Part shown: piece after piece, positions 42,001-48,000 of the stretch
Layout: every line of letters starts with the position of its first letter
Numbering within the stretch: the first letter of the stretch is position 1
From: Escherichia coli
Lineage (GTDB): Bacteria; Pseudomonadota; Gammaproteobacteria; Enterobacterales; Enterobacteriaceae
DNA length: 64,000 nucleotides
Reading direction: 5' to 3' (one strand)
Assembly: GCF_003334335.1 (NCBI RefSeq)
Contig: NZ_QOWQ01000028.1
Position numbers: made by a program

Positions 42001-45000
42001 AATGGGACGGCGTAACGCCAGCGGATACACCCGATCCCATCAATAATCCCCCTGTTGTGGATCCGGAAGGCCCATCAGTTTATCGCCCGGAGGCCGGAAG
42101 CTATATCAGCAACATTGCCGCAGCCAACTCGCTGTTTAGCCATCGTTTACACGACCGTCTGGGTGAGCCGCAGTATACAGATTCACTGCATTCTCAGGGG
42201 TCGGCAAGCAGTATGTGGATGCGTCATGTCGGAGGGCACGAACGTTCAAGGGCCGGTGACGGTCAGCTAAATACTCAGGCTAACCGCTATGTATTGCAGC
42301 TAGGCGGCGATTTGGCGCAGTGGAGTAGCAACGCGCAGGATCGCTGGCATCTTGGCGTGATGGCAGGCTACGCCAATCAGCACAGTAATACTCAGAGTAA
42401 TCGTGTGGGTTATAAATCGGATGGGCGCATCAGCGGTTACAGCGCTGGGCTGTACGCGACCTGGTATCAGAACGATGCGAATAAGACCGGCGCTTATGTT
42501 GACAGCTGGGCGCTGTATAACTGGTTTGATAACAGCGTCAGTTCCGATAACCGTTCTGCTGACGACTATGATTCTCGCGGTGTGACGGCCTCTGTTGAGG
42601 GTGGGTATACCTTTGAAGCGGGAACATTTAGCGGCAGCGAAGGGACGCTGAATACCTGGTACGTCCAGCCACAGGCGCAAATCACCTGGATGGGTGTGAA
42701 AGATTCCGACCATACCCGGAAAGACGGAACGCGCATTGAAACGGAAGGCGACGGAAATGTGCAAACGCGACTTGGGGTGAAAACCTACCTGAACAGCCAT
42801 CACCAGCGTGACGATGGTAAACAGCGTGAGTTCCAGCCTTACATTGAAGCGAACTGGATCAACAATAGCAAAGTCTACGCCGTGAAGATGAATGGTCAAA
42901 CCGTAGGCCGTGAAGGTGCGCGTAATCTCGGTGAAGTACGTACCGGGGTTGAGGCGAAAGTAAATAACAACCTTAGCCTGTGGGGGAATGTCGGTGTGCA
43001 ACTAGGTGATAAAGGCTATAGCGATACTCAGGGCATGCTGGGAGTGAAATATAGCTGGTAAACCGTATAAGCCGCATGTCGAGATGGCATGCGGCTTAAT
43101 ATTGCCGACTTCAAACGGCGCATCAACGCCTTATTTAAATCCTCCTTTTTATCCGCGATCGCGGATATCGCAGCGTTTATCCCGTAGAGCGGATAAGATG
43201 TGTTTCCAGATTGACTTATCCTCACTAAAGGATAAAACTTATAATATCCCCTTAAGCGGATAAACTTGCTGTGGACGTATGACATGATGAGCTTTCAGAA
43301 GATCTATAGCCCAACGCAATTGGCGAATGCAATGAAACTGGTTCGCCAGCAAAATGGCTGGACGCAGAGCGAGCTGGCGAAAAAAATTGGTATTAAGCAG
43401 GCGACGATTTCCAATTTCGAAAACAACCCTGACAATACCACGCTCACGACATTTTTTAAGATTTTACAGTCGCTTGAACTCTCAATGACGCTATGCGACG
43501 CGAAAAATGCCTCGCCAGAATCAACAGAACAGCAAAATCTGGAGTGGTAATGCCTAAACTTGTCACTTGGATGAACAACCAGCGGGTAGGCGAGTTAACG
43601 AAGTTAGCCAACGGCGCGCACACCTTTAAGTATGCACCGGAGTGGTTAGCAAGCCGTTATGCCAGACCGTTGTCACTTTCGCTGCCATTGCAGAGGGGGA
43701 ATATCACCTCTGATGCCGTATTTAACTTCTTCGATAACCTGTTACCCGATAGCCCGATTGTACGTGACCGGATCGTTAAACGTTATCATGCCAAATCCAG
43801 ACAACCGTTTGATTTATTGTCAGAAATAGGGCGAGACAGCGTTGGTGCCGTGACGTTAATACCCGAAGACGAAACCGTAACGCATCCGATAATGGCATGG
43901 GAAAAGCTTACTGAAGCCAGACTTGAAGAAGTATTAACGGCTTATAAAGCAGATATCCCGCTAGGCATGATTAGAGAAGAAAATGACTTTCGCATCTCGG
44001 TTGCTGGCGCACAGGAGAAGACAGCACTGCTCAGAATAGGCAATGACTGGTGCATTCCGAAAGGAATAACGCCGACGACGCACATCATTAAATTACCGAT
44101 TGGCGAAATCAGGCAGCCCAATGCGACGCTCGATCTCAGCCAAAGCGTTGATAATGAGTATTACTGTCTGCTGCTGGCGAAAGAACTTGGGTTGAATGTT
44201 CCGGACGCAGAAATCATTAAAGCGGGAAATGTGCGCGCGTTAGCGGTCGAACGTTTTGACAGGCGTTGGAATGCTGAGCGAACGGTTTTACTTCGCTTGC
44301 CACAGGAGGATATGTGTCAGACATTCGGTTTACCTTCATCGGTGAAATATGAATCAGATGGAGGCCCAGGCATCGCGCGGATCATGGCTTTTTTGATGGG
44401 GTCCAGCGAGGCGCTGAAAGATCGCTATGATTTTATGAAATTCCAGGTCTTCCAGTGGTTGATTGGCGCAACGGACGGTCATGCAAAAAACTTCTCCGTA
44501 TTTATTCAGGCTGGCGGCAGTTATCGACTCACGCCATTTTACGACATCATTTCAGCATTTCCGGTCCTTGGCGGTACGGGAATACACATCAGCGATCTCA
44601 AACTGGCAATGGGGCTTAACGCATCCAAAGGCAAAAAAACGGCAATCGATAAAATTTATCCGCGACATTTTTTGGCGACAGCAAAGGTGCTGAGATTCCC
44701 GGAAGTGCAGATGCATGAAATCCTGAGTGACTTTGCCAGAATGATTCCAGCAGCACTGGATAACGTGAAGACTTCATTACCGACAGATTTTCCGGAGAAC
44801 GTGGTGACGGCAGTTGAAAGCAATGTGTTGAGGTTGCATGGACGGTTAAGCCGAGAATACGGTAGTAAGTGAGATATGGGGTTTGGTCATTGTTAATGAG
44901 CATGACAATCATGACCGCCAACGACTGGATTCTTCCTTGGTTTATATTGGTGCGCATAATGTATATTATGTTAAATCATGTCTGAGTGATGCGAAGTGCT

Positions 45001-48000
45001 TTTCTGGTAGTCGTTATTCGTTCAGGGTTCAAGAACTTAAGCCTCTCCTCTTTCATAATTGGCCTGTGCATGGAGAAATAGCCTGGTTATTCCCTGCCCC
45101 ATGCTAAGAGCGCAGTGTCTGTCGCATAGACACTGCATACGAAAACACCAGAGGGTGCTGTTACTTATTTAAGGACGGATCAAGCGGGAATGAGTCCACT
45201 CCGGTATCAGAAATGGCTACGTCTCAATGAAGTCAGGCGACAGATGCTGAATGAACATTACGATGTCACCACAGCAGCCTATGCTGTCGGTTACGAAAGC
45301 TATCCCATTTCAGTCGGGAATATTCGCGGATGTTTGGAGAGTCACCCAAGAGAGATATTACCAGGTTAAGAAAGTCTGTCGGACAGCTTTAATAAACCCT
45401 GCACTTATCTGTTTAGAGCAATTCGGTGTTAGTTTCAGCAAGCAAACATTAACCATAGCTAATGATTTATAGCCATATTAACCATTGGTAGCTCTTGACC
45501 TTTCCTGACACTTCCCTTGTTCGCAATAATATTCTGTTTAGTCACGGTTTATAAATAACATGCATAATGAAATCGTCATGTTATTTAGCGACATAAAATG
45601 TTTTTGCAAATACTCTCTTCAACAAGTGCAGCAATAAACTTGTTGTGGAACCAATATCCAGGTCGCAGGATATCGCTATTCTACGCAAGGTTTTTATAAC
45701 TTATCCGACAGTGCCTACAGTCGAATGAGTGGTTACACCGTCAAGCCTCCTACCGGAGACACCAATGAGCAGACACAATTTATTGATTATTTTAATCTGT
45801 TCTACAGTAAGCGTGGTCAGGAACAAATAAGCATCTCTCAGCAGCTTGGAAATTACGGTACGACATTTTTCAGTGCCAGTCGCCAAAGTTACTGGAACAC
45901 GTCACGCAGCGACCAGCAAATATCATTTGGATTAAATGTGCCGTTTGGTGATATTACGACTTCGCTGAATTACAGCTATTCCAATAATATATGGCAAAAC
46001 GATCGGGATCATTTACTCGCTTTTACGCTTAATGTTCCCTTCAGTCATTGGATGCGTACAGACAGTCAGTCGGCATTTCGTAATTCAAACGCCAGTTACA
46101 GTATGTCAAACGATTTGAAAGGCGGCATGACCAATCTATCGGGGGTTTATGGCACTCTGCTGCCGGATAATAACCTGAATTATAGCGTTCAGGTCGGTAA
46201 CACCCACGGAGGTAATACATCGTCTGGCACCAGTGGTTACAGTTCTCTTAATTATCGTGGAGCTTATGGTAATACTAATGTCGGTTACAGTCGGAGTGGT
46301 GACAGCAGCCAGATTTATTACGGAATGAGTGGTGGGATTATTGCTCATGCTGATGGCATCACCTTTGGACAGCCGCTGGGCGACACAATGGTTCTGGTTA
46401 AGGCTCCTGGTGCTGATAATGTCAAAATAGAGAACCAGACCGGAATTCATACCGACTGGCGTGGCTATGCCATATTACCATTTGCGACAGAATATAGAGA
46501 AAACCGTGTTGCTCTTAACGCGAATTCCCTTGCAGATAATGTTGAACTGGATGAAACCGTGGTCACTGTCATCCCAACTCACGGTGCTATTGCCAGAGCA
46601 ACATTTAATGCACAAATCGGCGGGAAAGTATTAATGACGTTGAAGTACGGTAATAAGAGCGTTCCATTCGGTGCAATTGTCACACACGGAGAGAATAAAA
46701 ATGGCAGCATTGTCGCGGAAAATGGTCAGGTTTATCTGACTGGACTTCCACAGTCAGGGCAATTACAGGTTTCATGGGGCAAAGATAAAAACTCAAACTG
46801 TATTGTCGAGTACAAGCTTCCTGAAGTTTCTCCTGGTACCTTACTGAACCAGCAGACAGCAATCTGTCGCTAAGGAACAATAGATTATGAAATACAATAA
46901 CATTATTTTCCTCGGTTTATGTCTGGGGTTAACCACCTATTCTGCTTTATCCGCAGATAGCGTTATTAAAATTAGCGGGCGCGTCCTCGATTATGGCTGC
47001 ACAGTCTCATCGGATTCGCTTAATTTTACCGTAGATCTCCAAAAAAACAGTGCCAGACAATTTCCAACGACCGGTAGCACAAGTCCAGCCGTCCCTTTTC
47101 AGATTACGTTAAGTGAATGCAGCAAAGGGACAACGGGGGTTCGGGTTGCATTTAACGGTATTGAGGATGCAGAAAATAATACTTTGTTGAAACTGGATGA
47201 AGGAAGCAATACGGCCTCCGGTTTGGGTATAGAAATATTGGACGCAAATATGCGTCCGGTGAAACTGAATGATCTTCATGCCGGGATGCAGTGGATCCCA
47301 CTGGTACCAGAACAGAACAATATTTTGCCTTACTCCGCTCGTCTGAAGTCAACTCAGAAGTCCGTCAATCCGGGACTGGTGAGGGCTTCGGCAACCTTTA
47401 CCCTTGAATTTCAATAATCAGAGTCAGATATGAAAAGACTTCACAAGAGGTTCCTGTTAGCTACGTTTTGCGCGTTATTCACAGCAACTCTCCAGGCCGC
47501 CGATGTCACTATCACTGTTAATGGTCGGGTAGTCGCTAAACCCTGCACTATTCAAACCAAAGAAGCTAACGTTAATCTCGGGGATCTTTATACGCGCAAT
47601 CTGCAACAACCTGGTTCTGCATCTGGCTGGCACAATATTACTTTGTCATTAACCGATTGTCCGGTTGAAACAAGTGCAGTGACGGCAATCGTGACAGGTT
47701 CAACTGACAATACGGGTTATTACAAAAATGAAGGTACTGCCGAAAATATTCAGATAGAGCTGAGGGATGACCAGGATGCTGCGTTAAAAAATGGCGATAG
47801 CAAAACGGTTATTGTTGATGAGATCACTCGTAATGCACAGTTTCCACTTAAGGCAAGAGCTATCACGGTGAATGGAAACGCAAGCCAGGGAACGATCGAG
47901 GCGCTAATCAATGTGATCTACACCTGGCAATAACGTCGATTCGATTTTCTTAGCCTTCTTTTTAAATCAATTTTTAACCTTAGGATATATCATGGGTAAA

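What the first reader, a model, noticed from the sequence alone, without database searches (positions are those of the whole stretch)
44873..46873. Deletion scar: AraC-regulator remnant, truncated usher, no chaperone or major pilin
Between hipA and the fimbrial genes there are only a 59-codon C-terminal fragment of an AraC-type regulator (45190-45369), a perfect 9-bp-stem hairpin (45112-45136), and an usher ORF of 382 aa where full ushers are about 800-880 aa. No chaperone or major-subunit gene is present. One or more deletions appear to have removed the 5' half of a chaperone-usher operon and its regulator.
Basis: partly seen in the sequence, partly recalled or inferred. Interest (0 to 1): 0.4.

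Follow-up and report, generated by a model that had tools for sequence, protein, structure and literature searches.

The report
Known F9 fimbrial deletion scar, K-12
This is the long-annotated remnant of the F9 (yde) fimbrial operon of E. coli K-12 and its relatives: one clean 3.3-kb deletion removed the major pilin, the chaperone and the first 475 codons of the usher. The neighbouring AraC fragment and hairpin are debris of an unrelated, older gene cassette, so the finding is real but ordinary.

Summary
The 59-codon AraC-like ORF, the 9-bp hairpin and the 382-codon usher ORF are all at the stated coordinates, and there is no chaperone or major-pilin gene.

The window is E. coli K-12-like. The locus reads hipBA, yneL', ydeT', ydeS, ydeR, ydeQ, ydeP.

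Compared with nearly isogenic strains that carry an intact F9 operon, there is one deletion of about 3,280 bp.
- The junction is at window 45647/45648, with 1 bp of microhomology and no insertion sequence.
- It runs from about +73 of the f9 5'-UTR to usher codon 475.
- The mapped f9 promoter is kept.
- The same junction is present in 1,381 of 5,426 complete E. coli genomes.

The AraC fragment is not the operon's lost regulator.
- It is codons 235-304 of a 304-aa AraC_N-type regulator, with a frameshift.
- That regulator belongs to a hydrolase-ADH-AraC cassette.
- It is equally truncated in strains whose F9 operon is intact.

The hairpin is the conserved stem-loop just 3' of that cassette's lost hydrolase gene. 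It lies 48 bp from a different, older junction (45183/45184).

PGAP annotates both genes as pseudogenes. Wurpel et al. [quoted passage not shown] Verdict: already known, low interest.

The parts
43550..44872 (+). hipA, the left boundary gene. It is intact. hipB lies at 43284-43550.
   Evidence: PGAP annotation of the 99.97%-identical K-12-type locus L001; ORF list.
45013..45057 (-). Remnant of the first ~12 codons (MKEERLKFLNPE) of a DUF2255 gene belonging to the decayed cassette.
   Evidence: 82-86% identical to the start of the Klebsiella DUF2255 gene, L005 5710-5754.
45082..45171 (-). Relic of the 3' flank, plus the stop-codon region, of a lost alpha/beta-hydrolase gene.
   Evidence: Matches L009 8990-9082 at 73%; the hydrolase CDS there is 9076-10173 on the minus strand. 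Matches Klebsiella L005 5859-5940 at 79%.
45112..45136 (.). The 9-bp perfect hairpin. It is the conserved stem-loop immediately 3' of the lost hydrolase gene.
   Evidence: The stem is conserved while the loop is 7, 9 or 13 nt in the three homologues. The intact copies fold strongly on the minus strand, z = -3.8 and -5.0. There is no T-run, so no terminator call, and no Rfam match.
45183..45184 (.). Older deletion junction inside the cassette: the hydrolase 3' flank is joined to AraC codon 235. About 3.2 kb is missing relative to the intact cassette.
   Evidence: Window 45082-45171 corresponds to L009 8990-9082, and window 45184-45393 to L009 12311-12521. This junction is present in about 3,045 of 5,426 genomes, including strains with intact F9.
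45184..45392 (+). AraC-family pseudogene (yneL'). It comprises codons 235-304 of a 304-aa AraC_N + HTH_18 regulator, with a 1-bp deletion (frameshift) at about 45300/45301.
   Evidence: 87.7% identical to L009 12311-12521. The intact protein is 304 aa, with AraC_N at residues 31-182 and HTH_18 at 217-291. PGAP marks it as a pseudogene.
45539..45575 (+). Retained f9 promoter: -35 TAGTCA (45539-45544), 18-bp spacer, -10 CATAAT (45563-45568), TSS at about G45575.
   Evidence: Promoter scan. It matches the 5'-RACE-mapped CFT073 f9 promoter: -35 TAGTCG, 18-bp spacer, -10 CATAAT, and a G at the TSS 251 nt upstream of the major-subunit ATG (PMC3966885). Position checked against L007.
45647..45648 (.). 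F9 deletion junction. The 5'-UTR at about +73 is joined to usher codon 476. There is 1 bp (G) of microhomology and no IS or repeat.
   Evidence: Window 42583-45647 corresponds to L007 4524-7587, and window 45647-48917 to L007 10866-14136. The O157 locus L002 gives the same endpoints, 5721 and 9001. The junction-spanning 120-mer is present in 1,381 genomes.
45647..46873 (+). ydeT', the usher pseudogene (codons 476-883 plus stop). The mechanical 382-aa ORF starts at the internal Met502 (45725).
   Evidence: In frame with the 883-aa usher. Pfam gives Usher model 259-549 of 549 and a complete PapC_C, but no PapC_N. PGAP marks it as a pseudogene missing its N-terminus.
46887..48906 (+). Surviving intact distal genes: ydeS (46887-47417), ydeR (47430-47933) and ydeQ (47992-48906, the adhesin).
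   Evidence: ORFs. The protein accessions are the same as in the intact-F9 strain E2865.

Best explanation
Window 44873-46873 is a stack of independent gene-decay scars in the K-12 / phylogroup-A form of the hipBA-F9-ydeP locus. It is not a working element.

Event 1 (older). A horizontally acquired cassette (DUF2255, alpha/beta hydrolase, an ADH gene and an AraC_N-type regulator) that once lay between hipA and the f9 operon was whittled down by deletions. In this lineage the remains are:
- 12 codons of the DUF2255 gene;
- the hydrolase's 3' flank with its stem-loop, which is the 'hairpin';
- the last 70 codons of the AraC gene, later frameshifted.
O157-type strains derive from the same cassette by different, overlapping deletions.

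Event 2 (younger, nested within event 1). A single illegitimate-recombination deletion of about 3,280 bp, with 1 bp of microhomology, removed f9 5'-UTR +74 onward, the major subunit gene, the chaperone gene and usher codons 1-475.

Consequences.
- No F9 fimbriae can be assembled. The usher fragment lacks its signal peptide, N-terminal domain, plug and half of the barrel.
- The H-NS-repressed, low-temperature f9 promoter now sits directly upstream of ydeT'-ydeS-ydeR-ydeQ. These genes are still intact but orphaned.

Shown: the endpoints, the domain content, the order of events and the distribution. Inferred: the deletion mechanism, the terminator or stabiliser role of the ancestral stem-loop, and residual transcription from the kept promoter.
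For: Identity of the locus: the window is 99.97% identical to a K-12-type chromosome whose PGAP annotation reads hipB, hipA, HTH pseudogene, ydeT pseudogene, ydeS, ydeR, ydeQ, ydeP.

F9 deletion:
- Endpoints were mapped against two intact alleles.
- The right end falls exactly at codon 475/476 of the 883-aa usher.
- Pfam finds Usher model 259-549 of 549 plus PapC_C only.
- The identical junction is in 1,381 of 5,426 genomes. The undeleted left boundary is in 2,658.

AraC and hairpin:
- The AraC/hairpin arrangement is in about 3,045 genomes, including E2865 with an intact F9 operon and identical YdeS/R/Q proteins.
- An intact cassette with a 304-aa AraC (AraC_N + HTH_18) exists at argW/intS in 86 genomes.
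- The remnants map onto that cassette and onto Klebsiella loci.
- The hairpin is conserved 3' of the hydrolase stop codon.

Promoter: the retained promoter matches the published 5'-RACE map.

[quoted passage not shown] The 5' region is variable and its putative regulators have no known link to f9 (PMC3966885). [quoted passage not shown]
Against: Little argues against this account.

- The cassette's former presence at this exact locus is inferred from short remnants of 45-210 bp at 73-88% identity. No E. coli was found with the whole cassette between hipA and f9.
- The stem-loop's function as a terminator or stabiliser is untested. It has no T-run.
- A single origin for the F9 deletion is inferred from junction identity, not from a phylogeny. 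Spread by recombination is not excluded.
Confidence: 0.93

Rival explanations
1. The AraC fragment is the remnant of the dedicated regulator of the F9 operon and was lost together with the operon's 5' half.
For: Adjacency and same orientation, about 250 bp upstream of the f9 promoter. AraC-type regulators do control some fimbrial operons (general knowledge).
Against: The identical truncated, frameshifted remnant lies upstream of a fully intact F9 operon in E2865. O157 (intact F9) and SMS-3-5 (full-length usher, IS3 in ydeR) carry a differently truncated AraC remnant. Intact homologues sit beside a hydrolase and an ADH gene on an argW island, and in Klebsiella beside DUF2255, DeoR and sugar-kinase genes with no fimbrial genes nearby. 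The protein is of the AraC_N (YqhC-like) type. Wurpel 2014 found no link between these regulators and f9.
Confidence: 0.04
2. The 382-aa ORF is a naturally short, functional usher-like or secretin-like protein rather than a fragment.
For: It is an uninterrupted ORF with a complete PapC_C domain, and it is conserved in about 25% of genomes.
Against: DNA homology to full-length ushers begins 78 nt upstream of its ATG, exactly in frame at codon 476. The Pfam Usher model is covered only from position 259. There is no PapC_N, and the N-terminus (MSGYTVKPPTGDTNEQ...) is hydrophilic with no signal peptide. No Shine-Dalgarno sequence is evident before 45725. There is no chaperone gene. PGAP calls it a pseudogene. 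Carriers show further decay.
Confidence: 0.02
3. The hairpin is an active element, such as the hipBA terminator, a REP-like element, or the site at which the deletions were made.
For: The stem is perfect, with a significant fold. It lies 240 nt downstream of hipA and 48 nt from the 45183/45184 junction.
Against: There is no T-run on either side and no Rfam or REP match. It occurs once per genome, in this cassette context only. The same stem-loop is present in intact cassettes where no junction exists. It is 511 bp from the fimbrial junction. O157-type strains lack it yet carry hipA-derived sequence upstream.
Confidence: 0.05

Closest known systems
ydeT and yneL pseudogenes of E. coli K-12 MG1655 (the ydeQRST 'operon')
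   Same: Same locus and gene order, with 99.97% sequence identity to a K-12-type chromosome. PGAP labels the usher fragment ydeT and the HTH fragment as an incomplete, frameshifted pseudogene. The name yneL is from my own knowledge of the K-12 annotation.
   Different: Nothing material. This work adds exact endpoints, the retained promoter and the origin of the AraC and hairpin debris.
Intact F9 (Fml / Yde) gamma-1 chaperone-usher fimbrial operon of E. coli O157:H7, CFT073 and B1 strains
   Same: Same chromosomal position between hipBA and ydeP. The retained part is 98.5-99.8% identical. The promoter is the same, and ydeS, ydeR and ydeQ are the same.
   Different: The window lacks 3.28 kb: 5'-UTR from about +74, the major subunit, the chaperone and usher codons 1-475.
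Hydrolase / Fe-ADH / AraC_N-regulator cassette on the argW-intS island of some E. coli, and the homologous Klebsiella pneumoniae locus
   Same: The window's 45082-45171 and 45184-45392 match the cassette's hydrolase 3' flank (73-79%) and AraC 3' end (85-88%). The stem-loop is conserved.
   Different: Only about 300 bp of an ancestral block of at least 3.5 kb survive here, at a different chromosomal site.

Membership tests
Fimbrial usher (FimD/PapC family) | N-terminal signal peptide and PapC_N chaperone-subunit docking domain | tested here: not met
   No PapC_N hit. The sequence begins at usher codon 476. The ORF's N-terminus is hydrophilic.
Fimbrial usher (FimD/PapC family) | Complete beta-barrel with plug (Pfam Usher PF00577, positions 1-549) | tested here: not met
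   Only model positions 259-549 are matched, E = 9e-86.
Fimbrial usher (FimD/PapC family) | C-terminal PapC_C domain | tested here: met
   PF13953 positions 1-66 of 66, E = 4.6e-22.
F9 (Fml/Yde) chaperone-usher operon | [quoted passage not shown] | tested here: not met
   The locus position and the three distal genes are present. The major subunit and chaperone are absent and the usher is truncated. It is therefore a disrupted member, as in PMC3966885.
F9 (Fml/Yde) chaperone-usher operon | Mapped f9 promoter (-35 TAGTCG/A, 18-bp spacer, -10 CATAAT, G at the TSS) | tested here: met
   Window 45539-45568, compared with the published map.
AraC/XylS regulators with an AraC_N domain (YqhC-like) | N-terminal AraC_N domain plus a complete bipartite HTH (HTH_18) | tested here: not met
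   The intact relative has AraC_N at 31-182 and HTH_18 at 217-291. The window retains only codons 235-304, frameshifted after codon ~273.
Rho-independent terminator | GC-rich stem-loop followed by a T-run | tested here: not met
   No terminator-like sites in 44800-46000 on either strand.
Known structured RNA or repeat families (Rfam 15) | Covariance-model match | tested here: not met
   No matches at E <= 1 in 44700-45900.

The most novel reading that the evidence does not exclude
The deletion is internal to the transcription unit and spares the f9 promoter. The orphan adaptor and adhesin genes ydeS, ydeR and ydeQ (FmlH-type lectin) might therefore still be expressed at low temperature in phylogroup A strains, and might be assembled onto another pilus, for example by FimC/FimD of the closely related type 1 system. 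That would give a hybrid tip and explain why the three ORFs remain intact in most carriers.
Probability: 0.04. Interest if true: 0.45.

Novelty: already known. Interest (0 to 1): 0.1.

Why it matters
It matters little beyond bookkeeping. The result confirms, at base-pair resolution, why K-12 and other phylogroup A strains cannot make F9 fimbriae.

It corrects two tempting misreadings. The AraC fragment is not a lost fimbrial regulator, and the hairpin is not a junction marker.

It also shows that the locus upstream of f9 is a graveyard of at least two independent decay histories. The one mildly useful point for experimenters is that the native f9 promoter still drives whatever remains (ydeT'SRQ). 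This should be borne in mind when ydeQRST is treated as one of K-12's '12 chaperone-usher operons', as in PMC8174762.

Tried and rejected
- Inversion. I tested whether the K-12-specific 111-bp segment (45073-45183) is an inverted copy of the O157-specific 124-bp segment. It is not: local alignment scores are at noise level in both orientations.
- Full-length AraC orthologue. I searched 5.8 billion proteins with the O157 remnant. The 120 best hits listed (of 202) were all 160 aa or shorter, and those I read were fragments or ORF-call artefacts. The intact 304-aa copy was found only by DNA search with the Klebsiella locus.
- IS end. I considered that the 27-33-bp motif at 44944-44976 was a solo IS end. 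This was rejected. The empty site in K-12, compared with the ISKpn21-filled site with a 5-bp duplication in BUCT2930, shows the motif lies outside the IS.
- Rfam search of the spacer: nothing.
- Terminator scan: nothing.
- Literature on expression of ydeQ, ydeR and ydeS in K-12: nothing informative.
- The Klebsiella assemblies L003-L005 look error-prone, with many genes split, so their frameshifted AraC was not used as evidence of pseudogenisation there.
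Full report
WHAT IS THERE.
- a 59-codon ORF at 45190-45369;
- a perfect 9-bp inverted repeat at 45112-45120 / 45128-45136 with a 7-nt loop;
- a 382-codon ORF at 45725-46873 followed by three fimbrial-subunit ORFs;
- no chaperone or major-pilin gene.

The 61-nt stretch around the hairpin folds at -19.5 kcal/mol, z = -2.8 against shuffles.

IDENTITY OF THE LOCUS. A megablast of 44873-46873 against 5,426 complete E. coli genomes hit 5,412 of them. 1,366 genomes cover at least 80% of the query. The window is 99.97% identical over 10 kb to a K-12-type chromosome. 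PGAP annotates that chromosome as follows:
- autotransporter pseudogene;
- hipB and hipA;
- 'helix-turn-helix domain-containing protein, frameshifted, incomplete, missing N-terminus' (window 45184-45392);
- 'ydeT fimbria/pilus outer membrane usher protein, incomplete, missing N-terminus' (window 45647-46873);
- ydeS, ydeR, ydeQ, ydeP.

So both features are already annotated pseudogenes.

THE FIMBRIAL DELETION. Most other genomes match the query only from position 775, which is window 45647. Two strains carry the full six-gene F9 operon at the same place: O157:H7 (L002) and the B1 STEC strain E2865 (L007). That operon has a fimA-like major subunit, a chaperone, an 883-aa usher, and ydeS, ydeR and ydeQ.

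BLAST gives window 42583-45647 = L007 4524-7587 and window 45647-48917 = L007 10866-14136, the latter at 99.8% identity. The O157 locus gives the same endpoints, 5721 and 9001. The alignment of the junction with both parental flanks shows a clean join with a single shared G, no filler and no IS. The deleted segment is about 3,280 bp.

The right end falls exactly between usher codons 475 and 476. The mechanical ORF simply starts at the internal Met502. Pfam finds Usher model positions 259-549 of 549 plus a complete PapC_C, and no PapC_N. The fragment therefore lacks the signal peptide, the N-terminal docking domain, the plug and half of the barrel.

A 120-mer spanning the junction is present across its length in 1,381 of 5,426 genomes. 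The undeleted left boundary is present in 2,658.

THE PROMOTER SURVIVES. Wurpel et al. 2014 (PMC3966885) mapped the f9 transcription start site by 5'-RACE. It is a G, 251 nt upstream of the major-subunit ATG, preceded by -35 TAGTCG, an 18-bp spacer and -10 CATAAT. The consensus scan finds TAGTCA-18-CATAAT at window 45539-45568. The sequence is identical in L007, where the ATG-minus-251 position lands at the corresponding G to within 1 nt.

The deletion therefore begins at about +74 of the 5'-UTR. It leaves the H-NS-repressed, low-temperature promoter directly upstream of ydeT'-ydeSRQ. Transcription of the remnant is inferred, not shown.

THE ARAC FRAGMENT IS A SEPARATE, OLDER SCAR. E2865 has the identical frameshifted HTH remnant and the identical hairpin segment, yet its F9 operon is intact and its YdeS/R/Q protein accessions are the same as K-12's. 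O157 has an intact F9 operon and a truncated AraC remnant. SMS-3-5 also has a truncated AraC remnant, upstream of an F9 locus with a full-length usher but an IS3 in ydeR. The 136-bp stretch containing the hairpin and the adjoining junction is present in about 3,045 genomes. That set contains nearly all carriers of the F9 deletion, since 1,366 genomes cover the whole 2-kb query. The F9 deletion is thus nested within, and younger than, the AraC/hairpin arrangement.

ORIGIN OF THE ARAC FRAGMENT AND THE HAIRPIN. K-12-type and O157-type strains differ by a non-homologous block, 111 bp versus 124 bp, between shared flanks. It is not an inversion.

The protein search returned only fragments among the 120 best hits listed, all 160 aa or shorter. 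Their Klebsiella contexts gave the lead. By DNA comparison:
- window 45184-45404 matches the 3' end of a Klebsiella AraC gene;
- window 45097-45171 matches a site 2.2 kb upstream of it, just 3' of an alpha/beta-hydrolase gene on the opposite strand;
- window 45013-45057 matches the start of the next gene, DUF2255.

Searching that Klebsiella block against E. coli found 86 genomes with an intact hydrolase / Fe-ADH / AraC cassette. In the one genome examined (BS90R-A, L009) it lies next to intS and the argW tRNA. The AraC there is 304 aa, with AraC_N at 31-182 and HTH_18 at 217-291.

Mapping onto this intact copy:
- K-12-type 45082-45171 = hydrolase 3' flank (L009 8990-9082);
- K-12-type 45184-45393 = AraC nt 706-915, with one gap;
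- O157-type keeps instead a 60-bp internal hydrolase piece (L009 9438-9497) and AraC nt 647-915.

Each lineage retains parts the other lacks. Both therefore descend, by different overlapping deletions, from a fuller cassette once present here. This is an inference: no genome with the whole cassette at this site was found.

Translation shows that the K-12 remnant is codons 235-304, with a 1-bp deletion after '...GYES'.

THE HAIRPIN. In the intact E. coli cassette and in Klebsiella the same stem (GCAGTGTCTG / CAGACACTGC) lies about 30-60 nt 3' of the hydrolase stop codon. The loops are 9 and 13 nt, against 7 nt here. Variable spacing argues for a nucleic-acid stem-loop rather than a fixed-spacing protein operator. 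On the hydrolase (minus) strand the intact regions fold strongly, z = -3.8 and -5.0.

It has no T-run, so it is not a canonical intrinsic terminator, and it has no Rfam match. I read it as the 3'-end stem-loop of the lost gene. It lies 48 nt from the cassette junction (45183/45184) and 511 nt from the fimbrial junction. It marks neither.

ONGOING DECAY. Other strains show independent lesions at the same locus:
- an IS5-linked deletion from 45105 to 46803 (L008);
- IS1 in ydeS and a stop codon in ydeQ, on top of the K-12-type deletion (L012);
- a different, larger deletion (L013);
- IS3 in ydeR (L015);
- ISKpn21 inserted at 44943/44944 (L010).

LITERATURE. Wurpel et al. [quoted passage not shown] Wurpel et al. 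[quoted passage not shown]

VERDICT. The feature is an already known, annotated pseudogene locus. New here are only the details: base-level endpoints, the retained promoter, the cassette origin of the AraC and hairpin debris, and the order of events. Interest is low.

Noticed in passing
window 45552-45562 / 45577-45587: A perfect 11-bp inverted repeat, TAAATAACATG ... CATGTTATTTA, with a 14-nt spacer. It brackets the -10 box and the TSS of the retained f9 promoter and is identical in the intact-F9 strain L007. It may be an operator or an H-NS nucleation site. It is more striking than the flagged hairpin.
   Followed up: no
window 44944-44985; L010 2723-5000; L005 2401-2427; L011 4001-4041: The motif GGTGCGCATAATGTATATTATGTTAAAT lies immediately beside ISNCY-family elements in three unrelated contexts. 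ISKpn21 is inserted here with a 5-bp ATATT duplication in strain BUCT2930. An ISKpn21-like element sits beside it in Klebsiella, and ISLad2 in E. coli CT01. It looks like a preferred insertion target.
   Followed up: partly
window 37642-43061: The large ECSE_1600-family autotransporter gene upstream of hipBA is split by a frameshift into overlapping ORFs, 37642-41550 and 41511-43061. It is intact in strains TUM2820 and BUCT2930. Relative to E2865 the window also differs by about 233 bp around 42350-42583.
   Followed up: no
window 45013-45057 (minus strand): The first 12 codons of a DUF2255 gene survive as a further remnant of the decayed cassette between hipA and the hairpin.
   Followed up: partly
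L002 3817-4926 (O157:H7): In O157:H7 the hipBA module is itself damaged. hipB and the 5' end of hipA are deleted, while the F9 operon is intact. This is the reverse of K-12.
   Followed up: no
L009 9076-12520 (E. coli BS90R-A, argW-intS island): An intact alpha/beta-hydrolase and 304-aa AraC_N regulator, flanking a partial Fe-ADH gene, occur in 86 E. coli genomes. In the one genome examined they lie beside a prophage integrase at tRNA-Arg. This suggests that the debris at the hipA-f9 site came from a mobile cassette.
   Followed up: partly
L008, L012, L013, L015: At least four further independent lesions of the F9 locus occur in other strains: an IS5-linked deletion, IS1 in ydeS plus a stop codon in ydeQ, a different larger deletion, and IS3 in ydeR. 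The locus is decaying repeatedly.
   Followed up: partly
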